42,529 nucleotides of DNA from an uncultured Candidatus Saccharibacteria bacterium (GTDB lineage Bacteria; Patescibacteriota; 4484-211; JAGQKX01). The position numbers and the translations under genes were made by a program. Positions 12,017 through 38,384 of this stretch are shown piece by piece. How positions within the stretch are numbered: the first letter of the stretch is position 1; each line of letters starts with the position of its first letter. The notes under the pieces are model-generated. The model searched no databases. It was not told the DNA's origin and was given only the letters and a program-made list of their open reading frames with translations. The DNA is taken from positions 228,365-270,893 of the forward strand of contig CAYMOT010000002.1 of assembly GCA_964392315.1 (NCBI GenBank), given 5' to 3'.

Positions 12017-12035
12017 CAGGTGTTGCAAATATATT

Positions 12036-14327: not shown

Positions 14328-14331
14328 AGTT

Positions 14332-15351: not shown

Positions 15352-15357
15352 GTCAAT

Positions 15358-15391
15358 ACATTAGCAAAGTAATGATGAAGAGAAGATGAAG
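15358..15391 (-). promoter_or_regulatory. OmpR-type direct-repeat box CTTCAT-N5-CTTCAT (15391-15375) with extended -10 TGcTAATGT
   Basis: The 17-mer is identical to 23654-23670 and has the same spacing to the -10 and to the ATG. Confidence 0.72.
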
Positions 15392-15398
15392 AATGAGA

Positions 15399-17439: not shown

Positions 17440-17487
17440 TGTAATTATGTGTTATTGCTATCATCTATATTTACACACCTATCATAC

Positions 17488-18018: not shown

Positions 18019-18021
18019 GTT

Positions 18022-19593: not shown

Positions 19594-19771
19594 GTTGGTT
19601 TTCTTGCTGTGTATGCCCATGTGATCGATGCATAAAAATATGCATGATAGGACAAAAAAGCAAAAACATTCCCCATACAATATTCTCTCGAACCAAAGGG
19701 AACAGTATGTACACACCTAATAAACTAAAAATAAAAATCACACATGCAATTATCAAAAAATTATGCTTCAT
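19577..19771 (-). CDS. DUF2933-like small membrane protein
   Basis: LLFCPIMHIFMHRSHGH signature, commonly found next to Cu-ATPases. Confidence 0.78.
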   Translation of the reverse strand: MKHNFLIIACVIFIFSLLGVYILFPLVRENIVWGMFLLFCPIMHIFMHRSHGHTQQENQHVSKK

Positions 19772-19775
19772 ATAG

Positions 19776-21917
19776 TTATACGTGTAATTTCGTCTTACGT
19801 AGAGTTAAGGCGTTAATGACGACAATTACAGAGGAAAGACTCATTAATATAGCTCCAACTGCTGGGGTTAGCATAAATCCAAGAGGTATAAATAGTCCTG
19901 CTGCTGCTGGAATAGCGAGAACATTATACCCTGTCGCCCAGATAAGATTTTCTACCATTTTTCTGTATACCTTTCGGGACAAAACAATCAATCGTACAAG
20001 ATGCTGAGGATTGCTCTGCGTCAAAATAATATCTCCTGCCTCTACTGCTACATCTGTCCCAGCGCCAATTGCTACTCCAGCATTCGCTTGGGTTAATGCA
20101 GGAGCATCATTAACGCCGTCGCCGGCCATAACCACTACATTCCCCTGATCCTGAAGGTCTTTGATATGCCGATATTTATCCTCAGGTAACACTTCTGCAA
20201 ATACGGTATCTATTCCTAATCGTTTCGCTATAGACTCAGCTGATGATGTGGTATCACCGGTAAGCATAGCGACTTTTACTCCTAGTGTATGTAGTTCATC
20301 GACCGCTTGTTTGGATTCCTCTTTGACATCATCGCTAAGCCCAAGCATACCGATAATGCGTTCGTTGTCAGAAACAAATACTGGTGTCTTTCCTTCCTTA
20401 TTAAATTCATCTAAAATTTCTTGCGCTGATGCAGACATTAAGTTTTTTTGTTCCATAAGTCTTTGATTTCCGACAAAATATCTTTTATCACCAACTGATG
20501 CTTCCATTCCCATACCAGCTATATTCTTAATATTGGTTGCTTCACCATATAAGGCATTTTCTCGTTTAAGATAATTGATAATTGCTAATCCAATAACATG
20601 AGAGGAATGATTTTCTATACTCCCGACAATATTCAGTAATGATTCTTCATCACCATGGAGTATTTTTACATCGGTTACTCCAAATTCACCTTTGGTCAAA
20701 GTTCCTGTTTTATCAAACACTACATAGTCAGCACTCTTTATGATTTCAATCTTAGCCATATCTTTTATAAAAACCCCATTATTTACAGCTAGCTTCGTTG
20801 CTATTGTTGAAACAGTTGGTATCGCAAGACCGAGTGCATGTGGACAAGCAATCACAAGCACTGTAATGGCTAAAGTAGCAGCAAAGACAAATGGTTCGCC
20901 AATAAATAGCGACCAGATAATCAATGCACCAAACGACACAATTAATGCAGAAAATGTTAGCCATCTTGATGCCCGATCCGCCAATTTTTGTACTGACGGC
21001 TTGGTTTGCTTGGCGGAAGTAATCAAATCCTGGATTTGTCCAATGGTTGAATTTGCTCCTACTCGCGTTAATTTAATTTCTAACGAACCATCAATGTTTA
21101 TTGCACCTGCGACAACATCTGCGCCGACTGTTTTTTCAATAGGTTTGGATTCACCAGTAATATGGGATTCATTGAAATTACCACTTCCCAATACAATTTC
21201 ACCGTCTGCAGGAACCTTTTCTCCTGGCTTCACAATAACAGTATCACCTTCAACTAGCGACGTTATTTCAACTTCCTTGACCCCATCGTTAGTCTTTAGG
21301 TGTGCTTCTTTTGGCAACAGCTTTGCCACTTCTTGTAGTGCATCTCCTGCAGCTGTTGACGACTTTGCCTCAAGGAAATGTCCAAACAAAAGTATCCATA
21401 TAAGTGTTGCTATTTCTAAATAAAATTCGACCTCGATTCCTGGAATAAAGGTAGAAGCTGCCGAAAATAAGTATCCTGCACCTACTCCTAGTGATACCAA
21501 CGTCATCATGCCATACTGTCTAGCCATAATTTCGTGGCGTGCATGTTGGAAAAATACTAGACCGAAATAAAATATTATTGACGCTATACCAAACTCAACA
21601 AAAGGCCGTAATGTAAAATCAGGAGCCCCTAGAAACATGACCGCTGGTTCAGAAAAAAATGCGAGAGGAACCAATAATACTGTGACAATAAAAAATCGTT
21701 TTAGAAAATCTGCAGCCGCTTCTGGTGTCGCCATCATACTGGCATGATCATGGTGTGTTGACCCACTATCGATATCGCTCTTTTTGACAAGTTCCATTCC
21801 CCCACATTTGAGGCACTTACCTGGTGTATCCTGCTGTATCTCAGGATGCATGGGGCATGTATAGTACTCTCTTTGCTTTCCGTTATGAGTATGTTCATGA
21901 TTATTTGTATGCATCAT
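19776..21917 (-). CDS. copB: Copper-translocating P1B-type ATPase (CPH, P1B-3/CopB-like)
   Basis: His-rich N-terminus and YTCPMHP..KCLKCG metal domain; TGES, CPHALGLA, DKTGT, GDGVND, TM YN and MSLSS. Confidence 0.93.
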   Translation of the reverse strand: MMHTNNHEHTHNGKQREYYTCPMHPEIQQDTPGKCLKCGGMELVKKSDIDSGSTHHDHASMMATPEAAADFLKRFFIVTVLLVPLAFFSEPAVMFLGAPDFTLRPFVEFGIASIIFYFGLVFFQHARHEIMARQYGMMTLVSLGVGAGYLFSAASTFIPGIEVEFYLEIATLIWILLFGHFLEAKSSTAAGDALQEVAKLLPKEAHLKTNDGVKEVEITSLVEGDTVIVKPGEKVPADGEIVLGSGNFNESHITGESKPIEKTVGADVVAGAINIDGSLEIKLTRVGANSTIGQIQDLITSAKQTKPSVQKLADRASRWLTFSALIVSFGALIIWSLFIGEPFVFAATLAITVLVIACPHALGLAIPTVSTIATKLAVNNGVFIKDMAKIEIIKSADYVVFDKTGTLTKGEFGVTDVKILHGDEESLLNIVGSIENHSSHVIGLAIINYLKRENALYGEATNIKNIAGMGMEASVGDKRYFVGNQRLMEQKNLMSASAQEILDEFNKEGKTPVFVSDNERIIGMLGLSDDVKEESKQAVDELHTLGVKVAMLTGDTTSSAESIAKRLGIDTVFAEVLPEDKYRHIKDLQDQGNVVVMAGDGVNDAPALTQANAGVAIGAGTDVAVEAGDIILTQSNPQHLVRLIVLSRKVYRKMVENLIWATGYNVLAIPAAAGLFIPLGFMLTPAVGAILMSLSSVIVVINALTLRKTKLHV

Positions 21918-22201
21918 TAACTCCTTTCTCCCGCAAGTTCATAAATTTTTAGTAGCTCATTGAAAACCTTCTCGTCAATCTGTCCAGACTTGCTGTTTTC
22001 GAGATGCTCCTTAATATGGGTTTTCATATGGTTTTGCAGAATCAACTTATTAAGTGAGCGTATTGATTTCTGTATAGCTAATGACTGTGTAAAAATGTCA
22101 ACGCAATATTCCTCATTTTCAATCATCTTTTCTAACCCCTTTATCTGGCCCTGGATGATTCGTGTGCGATGTATGGCACGCTTTTTAATATCTTTAATCA
22201 T
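21917..22201 (-). CDS. csoR: CsoR/RcnR family metal-sensing repressor
   Basis: RIIQGQIKGLEKMI..YCVDIFTQ..LQNHMKTH; coupled to the ATPase (TAATG). The start was moved to 22201 because the upstream extension is the operator. Confidence 0.88.
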   Translation of the reverse strand: MIKDIKKRAIHRTRIIQGQIKGLEKMIENEEYCVDIFTQSLAIQKSIRSLNKLILQNHMKTHIKEHLENSKSGQIDEKVFNELLKIYELAGERS

Positions 22202-22207
22202 GTACCC

Positions 22208-22237
22208 ATGATAATACCCCCCAGGGGTATATGTCAA
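22208..22237 (-). promoter_or_regulatory. Sigma70 promoter (TTGACA-18-TATCAT) enclosing a CsoR operator ATACCCC-N3-GGGGTAT (22214-22230)
   Basis: Perfect -35 at 22237-22232; -10 at 22213-22208; G/C-tract palindrome of the type known for CsoR operators. Confidence 0.82.
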
Positions 22238-22242
22238 GAGAG

Positions 22243-23100
22243 TTATTTTTTACTATTCCTCCAGGAAGTGTACAGAAACAGAAATAAACTTATTATCAAA
22301 AGTAAGAACACCCCTTGTGTTATCCAGCTATCACCAACAAATTCGTTAATTCTAATAGTTAGTTGGCCAACCCATTCACCAAACTTTTCTGCTTCCTCAG
22401 TCATTTCAAGTTTGCCTGTCAGAGTAAGTATAATTGTGAGGACTCCCATTGGTACAAATACTAAAAAGGCTAGCATGTTTGACATTATGATGGGATATGC
22501 TTTACCTAAGACATGCACTTCTGTGATTTTTTTCTTAAAAATCTGAGCATTAAGTACTTTTTTTGCATCTACAAAGTACGCAAGTAAATAAAGCGGAGTA
22601 ACGATTCCAAGAACATATACAAACGCAACCAAGGCTCCAAACCATACACTTGGCGATAGGAAGCTTAACGTCAGCACTCCTAGAAGAACAGGTGCGCAAC
22701 ACGAACTTGTGATACCGGAAAATACACCCAATGTAAAAATAGACAGCACATCTGGATTATTCGGGTCTGAGTCTGGTTGTTTGAAGTTTGGCATGGGAAG
22801 CTTAATCCCTAATAGTGCAAAAATTCCAATAAATATCATCAGCAACCCACCAAGGATAAATGTCTGATTGTGAAAATCCATGAACAAGTTTGATAAAAAC
22901 TTGAAGCCAAGAACAATCGGAAACATGATGACAAAAATCCCAGCAGAAAACACCATTGTCATGAAGAATACCTGTTTACGTTCCTTGAATACAGAACCAA
23001 GATAGGCTGGTAGCAGATAGCTTATACAGCACGGTGCAAAAAGTGCAATCATTCCGGCTATGAACGATGAAATTAGTGAAGCCCCAATAAAGAAATCCAT
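22243..23100 (-). CDS. CcdA-like membrane protein with Cys-Cys pairs
   Basis: IALFAPCCISYLLPAY and SSCCAPVL motifs; multiple TM segments. Confidence 0.8.
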   Translation of the reverse strand: MDFFIGASLISSFIAGMIALFAPCCISYLLPAYLGSVFKERKQVFFMTMVFSAGIFVIMFPIVLGFKFLSNLFMDFHNQTFILGGLLMIFIGIFALLGIKLPMPNFKQPDSDPNNPDVLSIFTLGVFSGITSSCCAPVLLGVLTLSFLSPSVWFGALVAFVYVLGIVTPLYLLAYFVDAKKVLNAQIFKKKITEVHVLGKAYPIIMSNMLAFLVFVPMGVLTIILTLTGKLEMTEEAEKFGEWVGQLTIRINEFVGDSWITQGVFLLLIISLFLFLYTSWRNSKK

Positions 23101-23102
23101 AA

Positions 23103-23630
23103 TTATCGAACTACGTTTGCATCAAACGTTAGTTCCATCTGGGGCAGCTGTGTAGAATTTGTTTTTATGAAAATGCTTCGACGTGCAGGACCAGTACCTG
23201 ATGGCCCATGTGCGGCAGGATCATAAATCGCCTCGATTTCAAAACTCTCACCTGGTTCAATTACTCTATTAAAATATGTTGACGAACCATGACCGCGCAT
23301 ACCAGCGATCTGAGAACTTGTGCCGTCAGCATAAACTGCTTGTGCCGAAGTACACATACATGATGTATACACTTCCCCGATTGTTACCGGCTCATTGCTG
23401 TCGTTGGTTAACTGATATCGATGGGAAACATCTCCGTCATACATATTAATGACTCCAAAATCATAATCACTCGACTCAACTGATAATGTTCCATTGCTCG
23501 GTTCCGTTGAAGCGAGGACATTTTCTTGATCCTGTTGTTTTTGGTCAAATGAGAGAATTATCCCGAAGACTAATACAAAAACTATAGCAATCCCACCAAC
23601 CGCAAATAATGTATTTTTATTAAACTTCAT
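23103..23630 (-). CDS. Membrane-anchored DUF1573 (Ig-like) protein
   Basis: YDFGVI, VYTSCMCT, YDPAAHGP; paralogous to the C-terminal domain of 12629-13396. Confidence 0.8.
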   Translation of the reverse strand: MKFNKNTLFAVGGIAIVFVLVFGIILSFDQKQQDQENVLASTEPSNGTLSVESSDYDFGVINMYDGDVSHRYQLTNDSNEPVTIGEVYTSCMCTSAQAVYADGTSSQIAGMRGHGSSTYFNRVIEPGESFEIEAIYDPAAHGPSGTGPARRSIFIKTNSTQLPQMELTFDANVVR

Positions 23631-23689: not shown

Positions 23690-24961
23690 TTAGGGTGAGA
23701 TAAGTCTTTTGTTTGTCAGTACTACATCTTTTAGTAACTCGTTTACCAATTCTCGTTTTGCGTCGCGACTGCCACTTGTTGTTACTTTCTTGGCATATCC
23801 GACAAGGTCGAGATCCTTGGTGTGATGAAAAATTTTGTGATTATCCAAGACAGTATCGCGTAGCCTTTCATACTGCTCAATTGATTTCTTTAACTTATCG
23901 CTTATTTCTAAATCATCGGTGTTTTCGCTAATGAACCTCACAACTTCATCTTCAAGTTCTTTTTGTGACATATATTTGTTCTGATTACATTTTTTAAATG
24001 GTGTACGTACACAATGATAGTAAATATGTTCTCGATACCGACCACTCTTCAGCTTACGCCGCTTTAATTCGCCTGTAATGTTATATCCGCACTCACCGCA
24101 TTTAAATACATTTCTATAATCAAGCTCCACACTTCTCCACGGAGCTTTTTCCGGCACAGTCATTTTTACCTGTACTTTATCGAATAACTCTTTGGAAATA
24201 AGTGGCTCATGAGCACCCTCGTACCAGTTACCAGTATCTTTTGGGTATTCAAATTCGCCGTAGTAAAAAGAATTCTTGAGTACTCGGTAGATCATACTAA
24301 GAGGTACTTGTTTACCGTTTGGAGTTGTGACCCCTTCTTTATCAAACATTCGTTTTAGATCTCTGCCGTAGTAACAACCCTCTCCAAATAGTTCAAACAT
24401 CTCTTTAATACTGTCTGCTCGTTCAGGATCTTGAATAATTTTTTTAATGCCACCCTGAGATACATTCATGTATCCAATTGGCGCAGGGCCAGGTCGCCAG
24501 CCCATTTCACACTTTGCTCGAATGCCGCGCTTCACGTTTATTCCTTTCTGGTCGTTCTCTAACTTGGCCTGACTGCAAAGGATCATGAGGAGGAATTTTT
24601 GTCCCGGATCATTAGTAAACGTTTGTGAATACGTGCGTATTTGTTGTAGTTTCCCTTGATCCATTAAATCAACAAGTTGACCCAAGTCGCCTGCATTTCT
24701 ACTGAGCCTGTCTGGTGCCCATGTTAGTATTCCTCCAAATTCACCACGTCCAATATCCGTTATCAATTGCTTGAATATAGGACGTATCCCAGAATCTTTT
24801 GCAGAGTGACTTTCACTCCTAATGTCTCTAATCTGTAACCCTTCCTTTACTGCCAACTCAGTCATCTCCTTTATCTGAGAATCAATTGACATTGTCTGTC
24901 GTTCATCAGATTCGCTTGATTTACGGGCATATAAGCAGTAGTTGATACTTTCTTGCTCCAT
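23690..24961 (-). CDS. Large serine recombinase (resolvase + recombinase + Zn-ribbon)
   Basis: YARKSSE (catalytic Ser), WAPDRLSRN, GPAPIGY, HEPLISKELF, CGECG..YYHC. The ORF is open from 24991; ATG 24961 is preferred. Confidence 0.93.
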   Translation of the reverse strand: MEQESINYCLYARKSSESDERQTMSIDSQIKEMTELAVKEGLQIRDIRSESHSAKDSGIRPIFKQLITDIGRGEFGGILTWAPDRLSRNAGDLGQLVDLMDQGKLQQIRTYSQTFTNDPGQKFLLMILCSQAKLENDQKGINVKRGIRAKCEMGWRPGPAPIGYMNVSQGGIKKIIQDPERADSIKEMFELFGEGCYYGRDLKRMFDKEGVTTPNGKQVPLSMIYRVLKNSFYYGEFEYPKDTGNWYEGAHEPLISKELFDKVQVKMTVPEKAPWRSVELDYRNVFKCGECGYNITGELKRRKLKSGRYREHIYYHCVRTPFKKCNQNKYMSQKELEDEVVRFISENTDDLEISDKLKKSIEQYERLRDTVLDNHKIFHHTKDLDLVGYAKKVTTSGSRDAKRELVNELLKDVVLTNKRLISP

Positions 24962-25027
24962 CGAGGGAGACAATACCGCTAAAACCTTCAACAGCCTAGT
25001 CGTGGAGTATGTTCTATAATCTCCATC

Positions 25028-25756
25028 ATGGAATACTATAACGACTATTTCTCTTCGGATTTAAATTACTATAAATGGACGCTATGGCGGGAAGAGGCAA
25101 ATCGTTGGCTTGAATGTTTCTATGAAACTGATCCAGTGGCATATTTGAAATCAAGAAAACGGGTTTTACGTCCAAATGAACGAGATGGTTTTATGGCAGA
25201 GATAAAGACGCTTTATTTTTTGAAAAAACGATTAAAATTAGTAATAAACGAGATAGAGCCTAAAGATGGTCTACACGATATGTCTTTAACTGACCAAAAT
25301 GATGTGATTTGGAATGTTGAAATTAAGGCTCCTAAATGGATGGGTCAGGTAATGAGGAGTGATGACATTCCTATGGAAACCCGAAGGGAACGTATTAAAC
25401 GAGACAAGTATATAAATGCAGAAGGAGAGTGGTTTAATTCCTACGAACAAATTCAATATACATTAGAACATCCAGTCAATAAAGCATTACACAAATTTAA
25501 TCCATCAGAAAACAACTTACTTGTAATTTGCCCTGATCTCAAACACTCAATACATACAATGTTGGCAGTCGAGGCTATGCAAGAAAAAGATCCTGCCGAG
25601 CTACTTCGTCACTTAATTGAAATATTTGATCCCGAAAATAAAATATCTTGTGTATTGCTTCTTGAAACTCATTTAGTAGCAGATGCTAATCAAATTGAAT
25701 ACGATTTTATCGTTTGCCCAATATCGAAATCGTTACAGTTTCAATTTCAAGCGTAA
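25028..25756 (+). CDS. Hypothetical protein, putative PD-(D/E)XK nuclease fold
   Basis: GFMAEIK..HDMSL..NVEIK fits an E..D..ExK pattern; own TATAAT at 25015-25020. Confidence 0.55.
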   Translation: MEYYNDYFSSDLNYYKWTLWREEANRWLECFYETDPVAYLKSRKRVLRPNERDGFMAEIKTLYFLKKRLKLVINEIEPKDGLHDMSLTDQNDVIWNVEIKAPKWMGQVMRSDDIPMETRRERIKRDKYINAEGEWFNSYEQIQYTLEHPVNKALHKFNPSENNLLVICPDLKHSIHTMLAVEAMQEKDPAELLRHLIEIFDPENKISCVLLLETHLVADANQIEYDFIVCPISKSLQFQFQA

Positions 25757-25766
25757 GTCAGTCATA

Positions 25767-27257
25767 TCAAAAGCTCATGCCCCAAAACCCTCTTGTAATT
25801 GGTCTCCCTTTATCACTTCGGTGACTTCTCTTGCGCGGACGTTTTGGTTGTGATTTACGGATATCTTGCCCCAAGTAATTAATCATTAATGAGAACGCAT
25901 CAGCTAGGTCGTCGTGTCGTTCAGTGCCAAATCCAACGAGTTGTTGTATTAATACTTTTGCACCTTCTTTGGGGAATAAAACGTGGCCTGATTTAATAAA
26001 AGGTGTAGTTGTTGTGAGTCGTGCTCTTTTATCTTGCCCATGCACTTTTATTCCCTCAGCACGAACTAACCTTTCATTTAGCCGTTCTACTACTGCCATT
26101 TGATAGTTAACCTGCTCAACCAATACGATATAGGGCTTTCTGTCGAATTGACTAACTTGAGATTCAATAGTTTCACATGTCAATGGGAAATTCATTCGTT
26201 TGTTTATTGGTTCCGGAAGAATGTATATTTTAGTATTCTCTACGTAACCTGAAACATATGCGGTGACAATTGCAGTGTAGTCATTAGTATCCTCCTGACC
26301 GATAGCTGGGTCAACGCTTAGGACAACTTTTTTAACATCCTCCATTGGTGGTAACTGATCATAGTATTGTAACCAAGCTGGATGAACCACTTGGTCATCC
26401 GTTGCTACTATCTCCAATAAATATTCACGATGAAACGTAACAGGATCATTTATTTCTCTTTCAAGCGCTTTAATGTCATCAAAAGTCGGAAATCTTCCCG
26501 GCCACAAAATGTTGTTAGCTTTATCATAGAGTGGGTACTCTCTATAGACACCATCTACTGCATTTCCTTGAATCGCCTCTTTTAATCGTGCAATAAGGCT
26601 ATCATTATGTAGATAATTACCCACAACTATAATCTTGGTACTTTCTTGTCCCGCGGGGAGAATTTCGCCTTTAAACCATTCACTTGTCTTGTCTCTCATC
26701 TCCTGTGTTCGTACGCTTTGGGTATCCTCAACATCGTCAATGATGATCAAGTCAGGACGATTCTCTTTGTGCCTTATTCCCCTCAAGCTATTCCCAGGTG
26801 AAGATGCCATTATTCGTGCATCATACCTATCGAGGACTAAGGCACCTTTTTGCCATTCATCAGCATTTTCGAATAAATGCCCGAAATCTTTCTTTAAAAT
26901 CTCATTTGTTTCTAACTCCTTCTTGATGATATGGAGAAATAATTGTGCTTGTCGTTCTGTCTGACTACAGATCAAAACAAACTTCTTTTGTTGCCTTCCT
27001 AGAATCGACCACAATACATACGACAAGCTAACTATTGTTGACTTAGCAGAACCACGAAACGCTGTTATGACGGCGAGTTTCAAGTTTTCTGCTTCTGTAA
27101 GTTCAATAATCTCTCCGTGAAAAGATGCAGTTTCATATTTAATATACTGAGCAAAATATACATGGAAAAACCAATAATGGCTGTTAAGGCAGGTCTCTAT
27201 GCGAAATGTGCGATCCGACATAATGTTTTTATATATTTCTGCATCATGTTCATTCAT
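25767..27257 (-). CDS. terL: Phage terminase large subunit
   Basis: Walker A FRGSAKST, Walker B LIIIDDVED, nuclease motifs SVDPA, DYTAIV, VEQVNYQ, HDDLADA; SD GGAGGT 7 nt before ATG 27257. Confidence 0.9.
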   Translation of the reverse strand: MNEHDAEIYKNIMSDRTFRIETCLNSHYWFFHVYFAQYIKYETASFHGEIIELTEAENLKLAVITAFRGSAKSTIVSLSYVLWSILGRQQKKFVLICSQTERQAQLFLHIIKKELETNEILKKDFGHLFENADEWQKGALVLDRYDARIMASSPGNSLRGIRHKENRPDLIIIDDVEDTQSVRTQEMRDKTSEWFKGEILPAGQESTKIIVVGNYLHNDSLIARLKEAIQGNAVDGVYREYPLYDKANNILWPGRFPTFDDIKALEREINDPVTFHREYLLEIVATDDQVVHPAWLQYYDQLPPMEDVKKVVLSVDPAIGQEDTNDYTAIVTAYVSGYVENTKIYILPEPINKRMNFPLTCETIESQVSQFDRKPYIVLVEQVNYQMAVVERLNERLVRAEGIKVHGQDKRARLTTTTPFIKSGHVLFPKEGAKVLIQQLVGFGTERHDDLADAFSLMINYLGQDIRKSQPKRPRKRSHRSDKGRPITRGFWGMSF

Positions 27258-27690
27258 TACTATCACCTCCTTTCTTGTCAGTGTCTTTTTCTAGTAAATG
27301 TCCCCTTGTTAGTGCGATAGTGAGTAACTCCTGTTGATCTGGGGTTAACGTGCCATCATCCTCTTTGACTGTTGAGACTTCAACCCTGGTTTTGTAGTCT
27401 TTGTGTCGATTCTTAAGCCAAAATATGATCGCTGTCATATGTTTATCTTTTATGGCAGAAATGAGTTGTGACTCAGCCAAATCGTTGATCAGATGAATGC
27501 CCTCTGCCAATGCCTCATCTGATTTATCTCGAAATAGTTCATCTTCTTTTTTCCAGCGATAGTAGGTTGCTCTTCCAATACCTGTTTTTTCACAGGCAAC
27601 TTGAATGATTGGTGTTTTACGGATCTGCTCTATGAGCAAGTCCTTGTTTTGTTCAGTTTTTGCTATGACAGTGCCAGTTTTTTTAGGCAT
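27250..27690 (-). CDS. Terminase small subunit-like HTH protein
   Basis: IQVACEKTGIGRATYYRW HTH, AESQL..AIIFWLK; directly upstream of terL; start MPKK at 27690. Confidence 0.75.
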   Translation of the reverse strand: MPKKTGTVIAKTEQNKDLLIEQIRKTPIIQVACEKTGIGRATYYRWKKEDELFRDKSDEALAEGIHLINDLAESQLISAIKDKHMTAIIFWLKNRHKDYKTRVEVSTVKEDDGTLTPDQQELLTIALTRGHLLEKDTDKKGGDSNE

Positions 27691-28435
27691 AATTAATCCT
27701 CTCTGCTTTAATACCTGATAGGTTTTCAAAGCGATTAATGATGACTTCACAGTACGCGGGATCTATCTCGACCATAATGCAGCGTCGTTTGGTTTGTTCG
27801 CAGGCGATAAGCGTCGAGCCGGATCCACCAAATGGATCGTAAACAGTATCCCCAATACGAGTGCTGTTAAGAATCAGTCGGCGTAATAAACCAACTGGTT
27901 TCATGGTTGGATGTAACTTACTTTTATTGGGTTTCGGATACAGGATGACGGACTTATCTTTACTTTTATGAAATTCATGTGTTCCGTACCAGCCATATGC
28001 AATGAACTCGTGTTGTGGTAAGTAGTCCATTCGGCCAATGATGGAGTGATTCTTTATCCAAACAAGAAGCTGTGAGAACTTAACTCCGCTCAATTGCATT
28101 CCTTCACGCAAAGCGAAGATCATCTTGTCTGAATTGAAGATATAAAAAGCGTTCTTATTTGTAAGATGTGGGATGACAGGTTGTATCCATCGCTGCGTGA
28201 ACTCAGAATATTCTTGCTCAGTTTGCTCCTTGTCATTTGCGATGATTGTTTGATTACTTAATTTGGCAAACCCTGATTTATTCTCCACATATCCGACTCC
28301 ATAAGGAGGGTCCGTCAGAACGAGCGAAATAGATGTATCCATTAATGCACGTTGAATAATGTTCTTGTTGAGGGAATCGCCGCATATCAACAAATGCTCA
28401 CCTAATTTAGTAAAGCTGTCGATTTCTACTCGCAT
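27683..28435 (-). CDS. Beta-class N6/N4 DNA methyltransferase
   Basis: TDPPY (motif IV) precedes HPTMKP and DPFGGSGS (motif I). Confidence 0.92.
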   Translation of the reverse strand: MRVEIDSFTKLGEHLLICGDSLNKNIIQRALMDTSISLVLTDPPYGVGYVENKSGFAKLSNQTIIANDKEQTEQEYSEFTQRWIQPVIPHLTNKNAFYIFNSDKMIFALREGMQLSGVKFSQLLVWIKNHSIIGRMDYLPQHEFIAYGWYGTHEFHKSKDKSVILYPKPNKSKLHPTMKPVGLLRRLILNSTRIGDTVYDPFGGSGSTLIACEQTKRRCIMVEIDPAYCEVIINRFENLSGIKAERINYA

Positions 28436-29685
28436 AAAACAGCCTCCTCTCCAGTTAATTTTTCATAGCGTTTGATAATGAGGTCACAGAAAATTGGCTC
28501 GATTTCCATCATGAAGCAGGTTCGGTTCATCTGTTCGCACGCAATCAGCGTTCCACCGGAACCTCCATAAACATCCACCACAACATCACCTGGCTTGGTG
28601 CAGCGTCTTAATGGCTTCTCATGAAGCGTCACCGGCTTTTCGGTAGGGTGTTCGTAGTCTTGTCCAGCAATGCGCTTGACGAGCCAAATATCAAGTAAAT
28701 CCAAGATGTCATCAATCGTTCGGTTTCCGGTATCAATATCCTTATTCAGAATCTCGGTAAACTTAGTTGCAGTTGGTGAAAGATACGGATTACCAATAGT
28801 GCCATACACACACGGTTCATACACCTTACTAAATGCAACTTGTGACGTCATATTGGCGTTGTTCTTGATCCACAGACAGACGCGTTTGTTTGATATGCCA
28901 AGCTGTGTGTAGATGGACTGGAGAAGTCCGATATATTTCTGATCACACCAATAGAAAAAGTGACAATTCTTCTTTGTGTGCTTTAATAGATTTTGTATTG
29001 TCTTAACAAGGAAATTACTATACTCATTATCTGATTTGCTATCATTCGTCTTACCTCCATAGCCCTTCCGAGAACCGATGCCTTTGTTGTAGTCGAGTGA
29101 AATATTATACGGAGGGTCGCAGTACACCAAGTCTACTTTATTACCGTTTAACAACCTGTCTACATCAGCAAAATTGGTAGCGTCTCCACAGAGTACTCTG
29201 TGTCTACCAACTCTATACATATCGCCAATCTTTGTTTTAGGGCTATTAATGTTCGCAAGTTCATCTTCTATGTTAAATTCATCATCACTAATCCCAAGCT
29301 GTTCATCCCAAATGGCTGATAAATCTGCATCATTAAAGCCTACGTCCATTAGCAATTCGATATCGAAATCTTTTAATAGTTCATAATCCCATGCACCGGT
29401 ATTTTGATTAAGGCGAAGATTGAGTTCTTTTTCGCGTTCAATTTCGGGAAGATCAATGTATACGACGGGTACCTCGGTATATCCAAGATTTTTGGCAATC
29501 TTCAGGCGGAAATGCCCACCAATAACGACGTTATTACGATTTTCTGCTGCGTTGACGATAATTGGGTCAACAATACCAAAACGTTTGATACTCTCTGTCA
29601 GATTATCAATAGCTTTCTGATCCCATGATCGGGGATTGTATTCAGAAGGATTAAGTTGTTTTATCTTTACTATATGTATCTTCAT
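28426..29685 (-). CDS. ParB N-terminal domain fused to a beta-class DNA methyltransferase
   Basis: ParB-like YNPRSW..FGIVDPII..GGHFRL, then CDPPY, HPTEKP, DVYGGSGG; start MKIH at 29685 (ORF open from 29733). Confidence 0.9.
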   Translation of the reverse strand: MKIHIVKIKQLNPSEYNPRSWDQKAIDNLTESIKRFGIVDPIIVNAAENRNNVVIGGHFRLKIAKNLGYTEVPVVYIDLPEIEREKELNLRLNQNTGAWDYELLKDFDIELLMDVGFNDADLSAIWDEQLGISDDEFNIEDELANINSPKTKIGDMYRVGRHRVLCGDATNFADVDRLLNGNKVDLVYCDPPYNISLDYNKGIGSRKGYGGKTNDSKSDNEYSNFLVKTIQNLLKHTKKNCHFFYWCDQKYIGLLQSIYTQLGISNKRVCLWIKNNANMTSQVAFSKVYEPCVYGTIGNPYLSPTATKFTEILNKDIDTGNRTIDDILDLLDIWLVKRIAGQDYEHPTEKPVTLHEKPLRRCTKPGDVVVDVYGGSGGTLIACEQMNRTCFMMEIEPIFCDLIIKRYEKLTGEEAVLCE

Positions 29686-29689
29686 AGTT

Positions 29690-29810
29690 GTAGAGCGTAA
29701 ATAAAAAAAGCGGACGCCTGGGAAGAAAATCATTGTATTGATTTCTTTCCAAACGCCCGCTTTCGTTCACGGACACATAACTCATTGTATTGAGTGTTAT
29801 TTAATTGTGA
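29690..29810 (-). ncRNA. Candidate cis-regulatory leader RNA (attenuator)
   Basis: Lies between a promoter and the first gene; two hairpins share the loop TCA-ATACAA-TGA; has an alternative anti-terminator pairing. Confidence 0.5.
29703..29763 (-). terminator. Intrinsic terminator-like hairpin (about 25 bp) with U-tract, in the leader of the ParB-MTase operon
   Basis: Minus strand: AAAGCGGGCGTTTGGAAAGAAATCA-ATACAA-TGATTTTCTTCCCAGGCGTCCGCTTT, with the 3' arm ending in a 7-T run. Confidence 0.75.
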
Positions 29811-29814
29811 CTAT

Positions 29815-29843
29815 AATGTATTCCAACCTCATCTTACTGTCAA
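29815..29843 (-). promoter_or_regulatory. Sigma70 promoter TTGACA-17-TACATT driving the MTase/terminase operon
   Basis: Perfect -35 at 29843-29838, 17-bp spacer, TAnnnT -10 at 29820-29815. Confidence 0.7.
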
Positions 29844-29955
29844 GCACATAATTAGATTACGGTTCTGCAGTTTATTGGCATATGCTCTCAAAATCTTGTT
29901 ACGACTATGACCAAAATCTTACAAACCAAGAGATTATCGTGTTATAATGCGGTAA

Positions 29956-32900
29956 ATGGCAGATATTGATAATATCCTTAGCAATTACACCACAGCAATC
30001 TCGACCAAATTTTCTCATGCAGAAACAAGTGAATTAGGATATCGTACGGATTTCGAACTACTTCTCAAAGGTGTTTTTGAATCCGTTAACATCACCCGAT
30101 TTGACCACGATGCCAAAGCTCGTCAAGGAAATAAGCCGGATTTTGTTGTGGTCAAAGATGATGTTCCGCTCTTATACATCGAGACCAAAGATATTGGTGT
30201 ATCACTAGACAAAGTCGAAAAGTCAGAACAAATGACACGCTATTTCGGCTATGCCAATCTCATTTTGACTGATTATGTTGAATTTCGGTTTTACCGAAAC
30301 GGTTTGGCATATGGTGAACCGATCAAGATTGCAGATTACGACAGTAAAGCACGTACCATCACTCCGCATTCAGAACATTACGAGTATCTTGCTAAGACAC
30401 TGATTGATTTCACTCAATCACACAAAGAACCGATTAAGTCTGGCAAGCACTTGGCAAAAATCATGGGAGGTAAAGCACAACGAATTCGCGACAATATCAA
30501 AGAAATACTCTCTAGCGAAAACGAGAGAAGTACCGAGTTACTAAGCGTATACGAAACCATAAAGAGATTACTGGTAAACGATCTGACCGAAGAATCATTT
30601 GCGGATATGTATGCCCAAACTTTGGTGTATGGCCTTTTTGTTGCCCGGTTCTACGATGATTCACTTGGTACATTCACTCGCCAAGAAGCTCGTGATTTGA
30701 TACCGGCCTCAAATCCATTCTTGGGTCATTTCTTTGACCATATCGCCGGGAGAAACTTTGAAAAACGACTCTCATATATTGTTGATGAGCTGTGTGAAGT
30801 GTTTACGCACGCCAATGTGGCGGACCTCATGCGACAACACTTCGAAACAACTTCTAAGAAGGGTACCCAACGTGGTCAGGATCAGGTGATTCACTTCTAT
30901 GAAGACTTTCTCAAAGAATATGACGATGTACTTCGTAAAAAAATGGGAGCCTACTATACCCCACTACCCGTAGTGCAATTTATTGTTCGGTCGGTCGATT
31001 ATTTACTCGAAAAAGAGTTTGGACTGACTGGTGGACTGGCGAGTACTGCCAAAACTGAAGATGGCGTGCACAAAGTACAAATTTTGGATCCCGCAGTCGG
31101 AACTGGTACGTTTATCAGTGATGTCATCGGCAAGATTTATACCCGGATAAAAGATAGCGGTCAAAAAGGACGCTGGCCTGCATATGTACATCATGAATTA
31201 CTACCTCGCATTTATGGATTTGAACTCATGATGGCTCCGTATACTATTGCCCATCTCAAGTTGAGTATGGCTCTTAAAGAAACCGGCTTTTTATATTTCA
31301 ATGAAACACGCTCAGGCAAAGCGCGACTTGGTATTTATCTCACCAATTCGCTTGAGGAAGTTAGTCAGCAACAGGATCTACTCGCCTTTGACTTTGGCGC
31401 CAGTATCGCCGAAGAGGCAAAAGAGGCTGCTAAGATCAAAAACGAAAAGCCAATTATGGTCGTCATCGGCAACCCACCATATAGTGTCAGTTCGTCGAAT
31501 AAAGGCAAGTGGATTACAGACTTAACCATGGTTTATAAGCATGGACTAAATGAGCAAAATATTAACTCTTTGTCCGATGACTATGTTAAATTTATTCGTT
31601 TCGCCGAACATTTTATTGAGAAAAATGGGAGCGGAGTTGTGGCGATGATAACAAACAACTCATTTTTAGATGGCATTACTCATCGCCAAATGAGAAAACA
31701 CTTACTGGAAACGTTCGATGACATCTATATTCTAAATCTTCATGGAGATACAAAAAAGAAGGAGGTTACCCCTGAGGGGAGAACAGATGAAAATGTTTTT
31801 GACATTCAACAGGGAGTGTCAATAAATATATTTGTTCGTAATAATTCAGAAAAGAAAGGTCCCGGTAAAGTTCACCATGTTGACTTATATGGAACAAGGG
31901 ATAACAAGTTTGAAATACTCAATAGCGCTACGATTAAAAATCTCAAGTGGAATACGATTGAAGTTGCTGACCCATATTACTTTTTTGTACCAAAGAATTT
32001 TGAGCTTGAAGAAGAGTACAGTAAAGGATTTAAACTTGATGAATCATTTATAAAATATAGTGCTGGGACTAAGTTTAGGAAGGATGGACTTTTGGTTAAG
32101 AGTCATTTTTCACCAGAGTCAGTTTTAAAAATGCTCGACGATATGCAATCACTACCAGTATCATCTTTAACTCAAAAATACGGATTCAAGGAAACAAACG
32201 ACTGGAAAGTAAGTGAAAAAAGGAAGCTTTTTGTGCAAAACGACGAAAACAACATTAGAAAAGTCTTATATAAACCCTTTGACTATCGCTGGACATATTA
32301 TCCCGTAAATTTTATCAATCAAATAATCCCTCGAGGAGATTCTAGGCTGAATTTAATGCAACATTTTATTCAACGTGAAAATATCGGTCTGATAACTAAT
32401 AGACAGATAGTAAATGAGGATTGGAGTCATATTGGTGTAACGCAAGTCTTAACTTCTCATGGAACTTATTACCTAGGTAATAAAGGACAAGACTATATAT
32501 TTCCGCTGTATTTGTATCATGAAAATGGAACTAAAACTTCTAATATAAAGATCGAGGTAGTTAACGAAATCGAGAAAACAGCTGGTCCGGTAACACCTGA
32601 AGATGTTTTAGACTACACTTTCGCTATCTTGCATTCACAAAATTATAGAGAAATATATAAGGAGTTTCTGAAGATTGATTTTCCACGTGTGCCCTATCCC
32701 AAAGACAAAGATACCTTTATAAAACTGATGAAGCTTGGGCAAGAGTTAAGGGAATTACATCTACTGGAATCAGCTAAAGTAAACAAATTTATCACTACAT
32801 ATCCCGTAACTGGTTCTGATACCGTCGAGAAACCCACATATAAAGAAGGTAATGTGTACATCAACGACGAACAATATTTTGGCAATGTGCCAGAAGTCGC

Positions 32901-33066
32901 CTGGAATTTTTGGATCGGTGGCTATCAACCTGCCCAGAAATGGCTCAAAGACCGAAAAGGTAGACAACTAACCAACGAGGATATTGAGCATTATCAGAAA
33001 ATCATCGTGGCGTTGGTAGAAACGGATCGGTTAATGAAAGAGATTGACAAAGTAATTGTCTTCTAG
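29956..33066 (+). CDS. Type IIG / Type ISP-like fused restriction endonuclease-N6 methyltransferase
   Basis: N-terminal KPD..IETK nuclease; GAYYTP, LDPAVGTGTF, GNPPY; C-terminal IDFPRVP..IGGYQPAQKWLKDR. No helicase domain. Extended -10 TGtTATAAT at 29940-29948. Confidence 0.9.
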   Translation: MADIDNILSNYTTAISTKFSHAETSELGYRTDFELLLKGVFESVNITRFDHDAKARQGNKPDFVVVKDDVPLLYIETKDIGVSLDKVEKSEQMTRYFGYANLILTDYVEFRFYRNGLAYGEPIKIADYDSKARTITPHSEHYEYLAKTLIDFTQSHKEPIKSGKHLAKIMGGKAQRIRDNIKEILSSENERSTELLSVYETIKRLLVNDLTEESFADMYAQTLVYGLFVARFYDDSLGTFTRQEARDLIPASNPFLGHFFDHIAGRNFEKRLSYIVDELCEVFTHANVADLMRQHFETTSKKGTQRGQDQVIHFYEDFLKEYDDVLRKKMGAYYTPLPVVQFIVRSVDYLLEKEFGLTGGLASTAKTEDGVHKVQILDPAVGTGTFISDVIGKIYTRIKDSGQKGRWPAYVHHELLPRIYGFELMMAPYTIAHLKLSMALKETGFLYFNETRSGKARLGIYLTNSLEEVSQQQDLLAFDFGASIAEEAKEAAKIKNEKPIMVVIGNPPYSVSSSNKGKWITDLTMVYKHGLNEQNINSLSDDYVKFIRFAEHFIEKNGSGVVAMITNNSFLDGITHRQMRKHLLETFDDIYILNLHGDTKKKEVTPEGRTDENVFDIQQGVSINIFVRNNSEKKGPGKVHHVDLYGTRDNKFEILNSATIKNLKWNTIEVADPYYFFVPKNFELEEEYSKGFKLDESFIKYSAGTKFRKDGLLVKSHFSPESVLKMLDDMQSLPVSSLTQKYGFKETNDWKVSEKRKLFVQNDENNIRKVLYKPFDYRWTYYPVNFINQIIPRGDSRLNLMQHFIQRENIGLITNRQIVNEDWSHIGVTQVLTSHGTYYLGNKGQDYIFPLYLYHENGTKTSNIKIEVVNEIEKTAGPVTPEDVLDYTFAILHSQNYREIYKEFLKIDFPRVPYPKDKDTFIKLMKLGQELRELHLLESAKVNKFITTYPVTGSDTVEKPTYKEGNVYINDEQYFGNVPEVAWNFWIGGYQPAQKWLKDRKGRQLTNEDIEHYQKIIVALVETDRLMKEIDKVIVF

Positions 33067-38160: not shown

Positions 38161-38384
38161 ACTTTGAGTTTATTAAAATTTGACCTGTTAATACAGGCCA
38201 AACTTTCTTGCTAAATAGATATTTTACTATAAGACGATAGTTTTTGCTTCTGTATTGTTTTAATAACAAACTACATTTAAAGTTGCTTGTACAATACTTA
38301 AGTGATTTTGCTATAATGTAGCCTATAACTATATTTGTTCCCCTAAGCTTGAACGTAATCTAGGGCAAATTATTTAATCACTTT

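What the first reader, a model, noticed from the sequence alone, without database searches (positions are those of the whole stretch)
23690..29843. Capsid-less packaging/integration module: ParB-MTase, MTase, TerS, TerL, serine recombinase
Seen: a promoter-led, SD-coupled operon with apparently intact terminase ATPase and nuclease motifs, followed after one inverted gene by an intact large serine recombinase. Portal, capsid, tail and replication genes are absent, although the flanking DNA is fully accounted for on both sides. Known: in tailed phages terL is normally followed by the portal gene, and satellites hijack helper capsids. Inference: this is a satellite-like or otherwise non-viral mobile element that uses its own complete terminase to cut or package island DNA including cargo, or a terminase domesticated for excision or defence. 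It is the best candidate here for an undescribed element class.
Basis: partly seen in the sequence, partly recalled or inferred. Interest (0 to 1): 0.75.

Follow-up and report, generated by a model that had tools for sequence, protein, structure and literature searches.

The report
Capsid-less terminase-carrying integrative element
The window holds one copy of a widespread, apparently undescribed family of mobile islands that insert next to tRNA genes with a serine recombinase and keep a complete phage DNA-packaging enzyme but no capsid genes, while carrying defence and metal-resistance genes between distantly related bacteria.

Summary
On the minus strand, 29733..25767 is a translationally coupled operon: ParB-MTase, MTase, TerS, TerL. 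It is followed by one inverted orphan gene and a large serine recombinase (LSR). No structural or replication gene was found in the window.

This is not prophage decay. The order ParB-MTase, (MTase), TerS, TerL, LSR recurs in 135 non-redundant loci. These come from Patescibacteria, Gammaproteobacteria, Bdellovibrionales and other groups, and at least 533 matches exist in species-representative genomes. None of the 135 has a portal or capsid gene. Their TerLs form a clade (NJ split 100/100) separate from phage TerLs, which are followed by a portal in 12 of 13 loci. All four core genes are under strong purifying selection (TerL dN/dS 0.01-0.05).

The LSR reads toward the 3' end of a tRNA gene (30 of 64 loci, never the other orientation). 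Direct repeats bound complete 13.6-17.2 kb elements. One element that is 99.9% identical sits at two different tRNA-Gln genes, in hosts whose flanks are only 84-94% identical.

In the window the island begins at tRNA-Gln (8821/8822) and runs past 42.3 kb, with copper-resistance and defence cargo.

The best reading is a satellite-like element that packages itself with its own terminase into a helper phage's capsids. That step is inferred, not shown.

The parts
8748..8821 (+). tRNA-Gln(ttg). Its 3' end faces the island, and this is the integration site and island boundary.
   Evidence: Found by ARAGORN and Rfam. Strain variant L166 is identical through the tRNA 3' end and diverges immediately after it. 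Eight independent contigs break at 8793, inside the tRNA. The same geometry (a tRNA on the opposite strand, downstream of the LSR) occurs in 30 of 64 related loci and never in the other orientation.
9042..23630 (.). Cargo block 1, metal/copper resistance and redox. It holds BlaI/BlaR-like proteins, DsbD, thioredoxin, rhodanese-DUF1573, a two-component system, multicopper oxidase, Cu P-type ATPase, CsoR, a second DsbD and a DUF1573 protein.
   Evidence: Pfam hits. The same cargo types (Cu ATPase, CsoR, DsbA-like, histidine kinase) lie between the LSR and the tRNA in other family members. One example is the repeat-bounded element L081.
23690..24991 (-). Large serine recombinase, with probable start at 24961. 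It is the presumed integrase/excisase acting at the tRNA 3' end.
   Evidence: Resolvase + Recombinase + Zn_ribbon_recom; phrog_95 integrase 2.6e-64. The YARKSS motif is present. An LSR lies downstream of TerL in 80 of 98 loci. dN/dS is 0.012-0.05.
25028..25756 (+). Inverted orphan gene of 242 aa. It is cargo inserted at the TerL-LSR hot spot and has a possible PD-(D/E)xK-like D..E-V-K motif.
   Evidence: No Pfam, PHROG, NCBIfam or PADLOC hit. It belongs to a small family of about 60 representatives. The structure model is poor (pLDDT 60.6) and the fold search was uninformative. Other loci carry different insertions at the same place.
25767..27266 (-). Terminase large subunit (ATPase plus nuclease), with probable start at 27257.
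   Evidence: phrog_38 6e-84, Terminase_6C. Motifs are intact. It belongs to the element-specific TerL clade. dN/dS against L084 is 0.095.
27250..27750 (-). Terminase small subunit-like HTH protein, with probable start at 27690. The putative pac recognition site would lie in or near this gene.
   Evidence: PHROG terminase-small families at 2.5e-9; HTH_Tnp_1_2. A TerS gene lies directly upstream of TerL in 130 of 133 loci.
27683..28435 (-). Stand-alone beta-class DNA methyltransferase (DPPY motif).
   Evidence: N6_N4_Mtase 2e-33. It is present in roughly half of the family loci.
28426..29733 (-). ParB-like nuclease domain fused to a DNA methyltransferase, with probable start at 29685. It is the first gene of the operon.
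   Evidence: ParB_N plus N6_N4_Mtase; phrog_498 2e-102. The GGHFR and DPPY motifs are present. A ParB-MTase lies upstream of TerS in 109 of 113 loci. It is also present upstream of TerL in phages of the sister clade (L143, L139, L149).
29734..29955 (.). Divergent intergenic region holding the best sigma-70-like match (29843..29815, minus strand). A 217-aa HTH gene found here in relatives has been lost.
   Evidence: Comparison with L084: a 794-bp stretch holding the 217-aa gene is replaced by 284 bp in the window.
29956..33066 (+). Cargo block 2 begins with a Type IIG/ISP restriction-modification enzyme.
   Evidence: Type_ISP_C 3e-72; PADLOC REase_MTase_IIG 2.7e-273. Orthologues lie next to the module in L084, L089, L130, L086 and L018.
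33073..42061 (.). Further cargo. It comprises an unknown 308-aa protein, a 1394-aa SF1 helicase-nuclease (PDC-S37/Hhe-like), a DUF2779/Cas4-like nuclease, an unknown 136-aa protein, a DUF4357 protein and an unknown 233-aa protein.
42088..42312 (-). XRE-family HTH regulator of 74 aa, of a type associated with the element family.
   Evidence: HTH_3. It is 66% identical to the XRE gene that directly follows TerL in L070, and 13 loci carry this cluster. It shows that the element extends to at least this point.

Best explanation
The window carries one member of a large family of integrative mobile elements.

Backbone:
- a regulator (a LexA/CI-like S24 repressor or an XRE protein);
- an operon of ParB-nuclease-MTase, an optional second MTase, TerS and TerL;
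- a large serine recombinase that reads toward the attachment site at the 3' end of a tRNA gene.

The packaging part of the backbone descends from a tailed-phage packaging module. The portal and everything downstream of it have been replaced by the recombinase and by cargo (defence systems, metal resistance).

Proposed life cycle:
1. The LSR integrates and excises the element at tRNA-Gln. This is supported by geometry, repeats and insertion polymorphism.
2. On derepression the operon is expressed.
3. The MTases methylate the element's DNA. This would protect it from its own cargo R-M systems and from the recipient's, and could also license pac cleavage, as Dam does for phage P1 (my recollection).
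4. TerS recognises a pac site on the element. TerL cuts there and pumps the DNA into procapsids made by a co-resident or infecting helper phage. The element therefore spreads as a phage satellite and competes with the helper for capsids.

How likely each part is:
- Conserved, selected, recently mobile, capsid-less element rather than a decaying prophage: about 0.9.
- LSR-mediated integration at the tRNA: about 0.8.
- Packaging into helper capsids: about 0.45-0.5. This step is inferred only.
For: Conserved synteny. Among 135 non-redundant loci, TerS is directly upstream of TerL in 130/133. ParB-MTase is upstream in 109/113. The LSR is downstream on the same strand in 80/98, and divergently upstream in 4 more. 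At least 533 confirmed matches exist in GTDB species representatives, including complete chromosomes OZ246402.1, CP011214.1 and OZ246394.1.

No portal or capsid. phmmer/hmmsearch with two portal types, minor-head proteins and MCPs from sister phages hit none of the element loci and nothing in the window. Pfam annotation of neighbourhoods shows only defence, resistance and housekeeping genes.

Phage origin. TerL relatives below 39% identity are followed by portal, minor-head and MCP genes in 12 of 13 loci, and some have ParB-MTase upstream. The NJ split between element and phage TerLs has 100/100 bootstrap support.

Selection. dN/dS is 0.011-0.048 for TerL, 0.005-0.075 for TerS, 0.02-0.09 for ParB-MTase and 0.012-0.05 for the LSR. 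TerL catalytic residues are invariant.

Integration. In 30 of 64 loci a tRNA on the opposite strand lies downstream of the LSR, often 180-260 bp after its stop, and never in the other orientation. Direct repeats of 19-25 nt of the tRNA 3' end bound elements of 13.6-17.2 kb in L049, L081 and L072.

Recent transfer. An element with identical TerL and 99.9-100% identical DNA abuts tRNA-Gln(ttg) in L170/L172 and tRNA-Gln(ctg) in L171/L174/L175. The L171, L174 and L175 host flanks are only 84-94% identical to one another.

The window itself. The island boundary is exactly at the tRNA-Gln 3' end.

Inducibility and size. A divergent LexA-like S24 repressor is present in 21 of 80 loci. The 13.6-17.2 kb size, the defence cargo and the presence of TerS resemble known satellites. 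A review states that terminase genes in an MGE suggest mobilisation by phages (PMC11389934).
Against: No direct evidence of packaging. No helper phage is identified, no pac site is found, and I could not establish that any of the sequence comes from virus particles.

No circular or DTR contig was found among 51 whole-contig loci. No attP junction turned up in IMG/VR for three defined elements.

No recognisable replication module is present, which headful packaging of an excised monomer would normally need.

The TerL clade has no close phage relative. The best hit among 50,697 deposited phages is below 30% identity, and no portal-linked TerL at or above 39% was found in IMG/VR. It is therefore unclear which portals this TerL docks to across such different phyla.

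All known satellites that carry a TerL also carry capsid genes (cf-PICI).

The window's own copy lacks the LexA-like repressor and the conserved 217-aa upstream gene. Its far end was not found, so it may no longer be mobile.
Confidence: 0.5

Rival explanations
1. Capsid-independent terminase. TerS-TerL would act without any capsid as an ATP-driven nuclease/translocase. One form is an anti-phage or interference effector: it cleaves or titrates invading phage DNA or packaging intermediates, with the coupled MTases marking self DNA, so the system is formally R-M-like. The other form is a processing enzyme for the element's own DNA.
For: The MTases are translationally coupled to TerS-TerL in virtually every locus. 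The elements are packed with defence systems. No helper phage or cognate portal was found, and the TerL clade is long separated from phage TerLs. Tandem TerL paralogues are maintained in 9 loci.
Against: The ParB-MTase, TerS, TerL order is inherited from real phages (L143, L139, L149), so the coupling to MTases needs no new function. The module is the invariant backbone next to the regulator and integrase, not variable cargo. TerS and TerL hit no PADLOC defence model. Terminases are not known, to my knowledge, to work as stand-alone restriction enzymes.
Confidence: 0.2
2. In-situ, lateral-transduction-like packaging. The terminase would start packaging at pac while the element is still integrated. 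It would push the LSR, the downstream cargo and the adjacent chromosome into helper capsids, so the module would mainly drive transfer of neighbouring DNA.
For: No replication module is present. The gene order is TerS(pac), TerL, LSR, cargo, tRNA, all in one direction. Phage- and PICI-mediated lateral transduction of defence islands has been reported (PMC12829572; title and abstract seen).
Against: Elements have sharp, repeat-bounded ends and move as precise units between different tRNA-Gln sites and different hosts. That pattern fits excision and integration rather than homologous recombination of transduced DNA. Cargo lies on both sides of the operon.
Confidence: 0.1
3. Distributed or helper-less virus. 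The structural genes would sit elsewhere in the same genomes, as in a split prophage or a GTA-like arrangement, so the module would be one part of a complete particle-forming system.
For: Only up to 10 kb on each side of each locus was inspected.
Against: Three elements with both ends defined contain no structural gene. The element moves on its own between hosts. The family spans several phyla, including roughly 1-Mb Patescibacteria genomes. That makes a conserved unlinked structural cluster unlikely.
Confidence: 0.1
4. Simple prophage remnant. A decaying temperate phage would happen to have kept its terminase and integrase.
For: The module is phage-derived. The window copy has lost one conserved upstream gene.
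Against: The same truncated architecture is found in 135 loci. dN/dS is 0.01-0.09 on all four core genes. Catalytic residues are invariant. The TerL clade is monophyletic and distinct from the portal-linked clade. There has been recent horizontal transfer.
Confidence: 0.02

Closest known systems
PICI / SaPI-type phage-inducible chromosomal islands
   Same: Both are site-specifically integrated islands of about 10-17 kb with a repressor and an integrase. Both carry a TerS that could redirect packaging and accessory or defence cargo, and both lack capsid, tail and lysis genes.
   Different: The integrase here is a large serine recombinase rather than a tyrosine recombinase. A complete TerL is present. 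Two DNA MTases, one fused to a ParB-like nuclease domain, are part of the backbone. No primase/rep-ori module and no capsid-size-redirection genes were found. Hosts are mainly uncultured phyla (Patescibacteria and others).
Capsid-forming PICIs (cf-PICI)
   Same: They are satellites that encode their own TerS and TerL, forming lineages distinct from phage terminases.
   Different: As I recall, cf-PICIs also encode portal, major capsid protein, protease and head-tail connectors. None of these is present in the window, in 135 related loci or in three end-defined elements.
[quoted passage not shown]
   Same: They are satellites integrated by a large serine recombinase (PMC6002521, abstract). They are anti-phage and interfere with helper packaging.
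   Different: PLEs have no TerL, carry their own replication initiator (my recollection), integrate into Vibrio repeats rather than tRNA genes, and occur in a single host genus.
Tycheposons (Prochlorococcus) and marine VEIMEs
   Same: Both are cargo-carrying integrative elements at tRNA 3' ends, and some are satellite-like with TerS (10.1101/2020.12.28.424599). VEIMEs are capsid-less elements found in virus particles, and some have serine recombinases and TerS (PMC9618062).
   Different: Tycheposons mostly use tyrosine recombinases (910 of 937) and carry replication genes. The PICI-like ones carry either an MCP or a TerS, and no TerL is mentioned in the passages read. For VEIMEs the paper presumes that TerL comes from the helper.
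Tailed phages of the sister TerL clade (e.g. IMG/VR loci L143, L146, L149, L151)
   Same: Some have the same order of ParB-MTase, TerS and TerL, and all share the T7-gp19-like TerL fold family. They are the likely evolutionary source of the module.
   Different: In the phages TerL is followed by portal, minor-head/Mu-F-like, protease and MCP genes. In the element clade it is followed by the LSR or by cargo. TerL identity to the window is only 30-38%.

Membership tests
Phage satellite (general definition: an MGE that is not a phage but encodes mechanisms favouring its packaging in particles made by a phage; PMC11389934) | Lacks genes for the viral particle | tested here: met
   No portal, MCP, tail or lysis hit was found in the window, in 135 related loci or in three end-defined elements.
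Phage satellite (general definition) | Encodes packaging-directing functions (terminase or pac/cos) | tested here: met
   TerS and TerL are intact, conserved and under purifying selection. No pac site was identified.
Phage satellite (general definition) | Is actually packaged and transferred in helper-made particles | not testable with these tools
   This needs VLP sequencing or transfer assays. Searches for circular contigs and attP junctions were negative.
PICI / SaPI | Tyrosine integrase with a specific att site | tested here: not met
   The only recombinase is a large serine recombinase. Site specificity itself is met, at tRNA 3' ends.
PICI / SaPI | Own replication module (primase/rep plus ori) | tested here: not met
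   No replication family was found in the window or in the end-defined elements L049, L081 and L072. Small unknown ORFs remain, so the absence is not absolute.
PICI / SaPI | Master repressor divergent from the operon | tested here: inconclusive
   A LexA-like S24 repressor is divergent from the operon in 21 of 80 related loci. It is absent from the window, which has only an XRE HTH gene at 42088-42312.
cf-PICI | Own capsid, portal and connector genes together with TerS/TerL | tested here: not met
Intact or decaying prophage | TerL followed by portal and head genes, or pseudogenisation and relaxed selection of what remains | tested here: not met
   No portal was found. dN/dS is 0.01-0.09 and the motifs are intact.
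SCC-type elements (Ccr recombinases) | CcrA/B/C-family LSR above the NCBIfam cut-off | tested here: not met
   The CcrB model scores 103.6 bits against a cut-off of 900.
Known anti-phage defence systems (PADLOC) | TerS or TerL matches a defence-system model | tested here: not met
   TerS, TerL, the 242-aa protein and the LSR have no hit. The MTases hit generic Type II MTase models only.

The most novel reading that the evidence does not exclude
The terminase of this element family works without any capsid. One version is the motor-nuclease of a new, methylation-gated self/non-self system, in which TerS acts as the specificity subunit, TerL as the translocase-nuclease and the coupled MTases as the self mark. 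The other version is a machine that excises, linearises or exports the element's DNA for a transfer route that needs no virion, which would matter for naturally DNA-scavenging Patescibacteria. Either would be a domesticated terminase with a non-packaging role, spread across several phyla.
Probability: 0.17. Interest if true: 0.95.

Novelty: new variant of a known kind. Interest (0 to 1): 0.8.

Why it matters
If the reading is right, this is a major and previously unrecognised vehicle of horizontal transfer. It would move defence systems and metal resistance in lineages whose mobile elements are almost unknown: Patescibacteria/CPR, uncultured Gammaproteobacteria, Bdellovibrionales and Chloroflexota. 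It occurs in hundreds of species-level genomes.

It would add a satellite architecture that has not been described: a complete terminase without a capsid, plus a tRNA-targeting large serine recombinase.

It raises a concrete, testable puzzle. How does a TerL that has evolved apart from phages for a long time find a portal in such different hosts, or does it not need one?

The tRNA-Gln- and tRNA-Ser-specific LSRs with defined att sites are also candidates for genome-engineering tools.

The family also warns that a TerL hit alone makes virus-mining pipelines call these islands viral. IMG/VR holds dozens of them.

Tried and rejected
- Circular or DTR signatures in 51 whole-contig loci: none found.
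- A copy of the tRNA-Gln 3' end marking the far end of the window's island: none in the window or in L157/L158, which extend about 1.1 kb beyond it. The far end therefore remains undefined.
- An exact-match scan of JGI metagenome contigs for the window's tRNA-Gln: no hit.
- Scans of IMG/VR for predicted attP junctions of L049, L081 and L072: no hit. These negatives are uninformative.
- Look-up of the 285-aa TrmH ORF: not on record. The 271-aa version worked.
- Promoter and terminator scan: counts equal chance.
- Long repeats in the island: only short, probably chance matches, apart from one 18-nt motif.
- The 242-aa orphan: the 2-sequence AlphaFold model had pLDDT 60.6; the Foldseek best hits were acetyl-CoA carboxylase domains at TM 0.3, which is meaningless; the profile against PDB found nothing.
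- Alignment of repressor-operon intergenic regions for an operator: uninformative.
- L140 looked like a concatemer, but it is a 1975-bp exact repeat with a truncated first TerL, not a tandem of whole units.
- A few dN/dS entries combine dN above 1 with aa identity of 0.86-0.99. These are ParB-MTase and TerS of L059/L072, TerS of L117/L124 and TerS of window/L084. They are codon-mapping artefacts of my script and were ignored.
- Plasmid and phage collections hold no TerL above 30% identity.
- Nine full-text literature searches found no description of the module. This does not prove that none exists.

Full report
**1. What is at the coordinates**

The minus strand of 29733..25767 carries four overlapping genes:
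- a ParB_N-domain/N6_N4 DNA methyltransferase fusion (28426-29733);
- a second N6_N4 methyltransferase (27683-28435);
- a small HTH protein matching terminase-small-subunit PHROGs (27250-27750);
- a terminase large subunit (25767-27266; phrog_38 6e-84, Terminase_6C, NCBIfam T7-type TerL).

After them come an oppositely oriented 242-aa gene with no family hit (25028-25756) and a large serine recombinase with Resolvase, Recombinase and Zn-ribbon domains (23690-24991).

The gene overlaps are 8-10 nt. GGAGG-like sequences precede the internal starts. TerL has Walker A AFRGSAKST, Walker B LIIIDDVED and the nuclease aspartates. All are invariant in an alignment of 25 homologues and align to T7 gp19 structures 4bij and 8dgc.

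However, such matches are no more frequent here than in shuffled sequence.

Public gene calls use slightly shorter starts for all of these genes.

**2. The rest of the window**

- 1-8722 encodes polysaccharide biosynthesis and a TrmH methylase. The best named TrmH relatives are Anaerolineae/Chloroflexota at about 50% identity, so the host is probably a Chloroflexota lineage.
- 8748-8821 is tRNA-Gln(ttg).
- 9042-23630 is a copper/redox resistance block.
- 29956 onward holds a Type IIG/ISP restriction-modification enzyme, a PDC-S37/Hhe-like helicase-nuclease, a DUF2779/Cas4-like nuclease and several unknown genes.

No ORF hits any phage structural, lysis or replication family.

**3. The module is a conserved backbone, not a relic**

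TerL has thousands of metagenomic relatives at about 50% identity, but nothing above 30% among 50,697 deposited phage genomes or 72,556 plasmids.

The best 80 come mostly from Patescibacteria. Others come from uncultured Gammaproteobacteria, Bdellovibrionales, Bacillota and Omnitrophota. Complete chromosomes are among them. IMG/VR gave 69 more.

Counts over the 135 non-redundant loci whose TerL is at least 39% identical to the window's:

| Feature | Loci |
|---|---|
| TerS directly upstream of TerL | 130/133 |
| ParB-MTase upstream | 109/113 |
| LSR downstream on the same strand | 80/98 |
| LSR upstream, divergent | 4 more |

Clustering all flanking ORFs gave no recurrent structural family. 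The recurrent accessory genes are:
- a LexA-like S24 repressor divergent from the operon (21 loci; Pfam confirmed);
- a variable small gene just upstream of ParB-MTase;
- an XRE HTH gene;
- a DUF4352 membrane protein;
- cargo such as Cu ATPases, CsoR, Type IIG/ISP enzymes, SNF2-PLD plus Eco57I-type MTase pairs, HsdM, Shedu, Druantia and Gabija-like genes.

**4. The contrast with real phages is clean**

The 13 loci with TerL below 39% identity lack TerS and LSR matches. In 12 of them TerL is followed by a portal, usually with minor-head/Mu-F-like, protease and major capsid genes. The 13th contig ends just after TerL. Some of these phages also have ParB-MTase upstream (L143, L139, L149), so that part of the gene order is inherited.

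phmmer and profile searches with both portal types, the minor-head proteins and the MCPs hit none of the element loci and nothing in the window.

A neighbour-joining tree of 60 element and 11 phage TerLs separates the two groups in 100 of 100 bootstraps.

**5. Selection**

Nei-Gojobori dN/dS values for closely related pairs of loci:

| Gene | dN/dS |
|---|---|
| TerL | 0.011-0.048 |
| TerS | 0.005-0.075 |
| ParB-MTase | 0.02-0.09 |
| LSR | 0.012-0.05 |

For the window against its nearest locus L084, TerL gives 0.095 at saturated dS. A few entries with impossible values are script artefacts and were discarded.

**6. Integration site and element ends**

In 30 of the 64 loci with at least 1.5 kb held beyond the LSR, the first tRNA met downstream lies on the opposite strand with its 3' end facing the LSR. 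A same-strand tRNA never comes first. The distances start at 180-260 bp. The tRNAs are Ser (13), Gln (12), Asp, Glu and Asn.

In L049, L081 and L072, 19-25 nt of the tRNA 3' end recur 13.6-17.2 kb upstream (E 4e-6, 2e-7 and 2e-4). These repeats bound complete elements. Each element contains:
- the LexA-like repressor with ThsB-TIR/8xMP genes, reading leftward;
- the operon and the LSR, reading rightward;
- cargo, which is Hsp70/GrpE/AAA genes, or Cu ATPase/CsoR, or MarR-HlyD-FtsX-ABC.

They contain nothing structural and no recognisable replication gene.

Cargo is inserted at three places: left of the operon, between TerL and the LSR, and between the LSR and the tRNA. Examples of the second are L033 against L054 and L059 against L072.

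**7. Recent mobility**

One TerL protein (P0080) is on 11 contigs. Its element is 99.9-100% identical over about 13 kb in all of them. It abuts tRNA-Gln(ttg) followed by a tRNA cluster in L170/L172. In L171/L174/L175 it abuts tRNA-Gln(ctg) followed by a Glx-tRNA synthetase gene.

Identity ends within a few nucleotides of the tRNA 3' terminus. The host flanks of L171, L175 and L174 are only 94% and 84% identical to one another, while the element stays 99.95% identical. So the same element is found at two target tRNAs and in diverged hosts.

Similarly, L028 and L040 share a 6.25-kb unit at 92% identity, next to tRNA-Ser(tga) and tRNA-Ser(cga) respectively, with different surroundings.

**8. The window's own copy**

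A strain variant (L166) with identical TrmH and tRNA-Gln diverges immediately after the tRNA 3' end. Eight contigs from other samples all stop at window position 8793, inside the tRNA. This places one island boundary at 8821/8822 and shows population heterogeneity there.

The geometry is the family's: the LSR reads toward the tRNA, here with 14.8 kb of copper-resistance cargo in between, as in L073 and L081.

On the other side, three observations show the element extends at least to 42.3 kb:
- the Type IIG/ISP enzyme is orthologous to those flanking the module in L084, L089, L130, L086 and L018;
- an XRE gene at 42088-42312 is 66% identical to one that follows TerL in L070;
- no second copy of the tRNA end occurs in the window or in the 1.1 kb beyond it.

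The island is therefore at least 33.5 kb long.

Relative to L084, the window has lost the 217-aa HTH gene that precedes ParB-MTase in 14 loci. It also has no LexA-like repressor. Whether this copy is still mobile is open.

**9. Mechanism**

Shown:
- a conserved, selected, recently mobile backbone;
- tRNA-end integration next to the LSR;
- absence of particle genes;
- phage ancestry of the packaging module.

Inferred:
- the LSR catalyses integration and excision;
- the operon is repressor-controlled;
- the MTases protect or license the DNA;
- TerS/TerL package the element into a helper's procapsids.

Points in favour of packaging into helper capsids: the intact terminase, the satellite-like size and cargo, and the general rule that terminase genes in an MGE point to phage-mediated mobilisation (PMC11389934).

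Points against it: no helper is identified, there is no replication module, there is no evidence of excised or packaged forms, and TerL has long been separated from any portal-linked lineage.

I put this step at about 0.45-0.5. The rivals are a capsid-independent (defence or DNA-processing) terminase at about 0.2, in-situ lateral-transduction-like packaging at about 0.1, unlinked structural genes at about 0.1 and plain decay at about 0.02.

**10. Comparison with what is known**

The closest kinds are PICI/SaPI satellites, cf-PICIs, PLEs, tycheposons and VEIMEs.
- PICIs: the same logic, but a tyrosine integrase, a replication module and no TerL.
- cf-PICIs: their own TerS and TerL, but also capsid genes.
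- PLEs: an LSR, but no TerL.
- Tycheposons and VEIMEs: tRNA-integrating or capsid-less cargo elements, some with TerS, but no TerL.

The element fails defining features of each named family. It fits only the general definition of a satellite, and then only if packaging is confirmed.

Nine full-text searches found no description of a module combining ParB-MTase, TerS, TerL and an LSR. I therefore rate it a new variant of a known kind (satellite-like integrative element), with a real chance of being something more unusual.

Noticed in passing
L009, L053, L060, L096, L117, L119, L121, L124, L141 (TerL region of each): Nine related loci carry two TerL genes in tandem between TerS and the LSR. The two copies are 53-57% identical within a locus. 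They form orthologous T1 and T2 sets across loci, and both keep Walker A and B. This is a maintained paralogue pair, not a recent duplication.
   Followed up: partly
window 8793 and 8821/8822; loci L161-L169, L166: Eight short contigs from other samples all end at window position 8793, inside tRNA-Gln. One variant (L166) has a different BlaI-like island sequence starting right after the tRNA 3' end. This site is polymorphic in the population.
   Followed up: yes
window 15374-15391 and 23653-23670: The same 17-nt sequence ATGAAGAGAAGATGAAG (read on the + strand) sits just upstream of two minus-strand cargo operons, the 339-aa gene and the DUF1573 gene. It may be a binding site for the island's two-component response regulator.
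   Followed up: no
window 25028-25756 (+): The inverted 242-aa gene belongs to a small orphan family of about 60 representatives among 1.84 billion. It has a conserved D..E-V-K signature reminiscent of PD-(D/E)xK nucleases. The structure model was too poor to confirm this.
   Followed up: partly
window 29655-29939 compared with L084 6809-7603: The window lacks a 217-aa gene with a C-terminal HTH. That gene lies immediately upstream of ParB-MTase in L084 and has homologues at the same place in 13 other loci.
   Followed up: partly
L049 20820-20842, L081 20425-20443, L072 16950-16968: A near-perfect palindrome (CTCGTGCTAGCACGAG and variants) lies inside the element within 1-3 nt of the tRNA 3' end. 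It could be a terminator supplied for the tRNA or an LSR binding site. The window has an imperfect palindrome (TTGGTGTTTCGAACCAA) in the same position at 8823-8839.
   Followed up: no
L140 1-1975 and 9118-11092: An IMG/VR contig carries a 1975-bp exact repeat covering MTase, TerS and the 5' part of TerL. The first TerL copy is cut short and followed by unrelated genes. This is either a recombination product or an assembly artefact.
   Followed up: partly
L107/L118, L111/L113, L109/L115 (same contigs); L022/L075 (same MAG): Several contigs or genomes carry two different elements of the family, so multiple occupancy is common.
   Followed up: no
L049 13878-20324: The cargo of one end-defined Saccharibacteria element is a GrpE-like protein, an 835-aa Hsp70-like protein, two unknown proteins and an AAA ATPase. 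It may be an uncharacterised chaperone-based conflict system.
   Followed up: no
L012 (candidate division WWE3) compared with the window: The LSR (73%), MTase (71%), ParB-MTase (67%) and TerS (63%) of L012 are much closer to the window's than TerL is (49%). This suggests that TerL was exchanged, or evolved faster, in the window's lineage.
   Followed up: no
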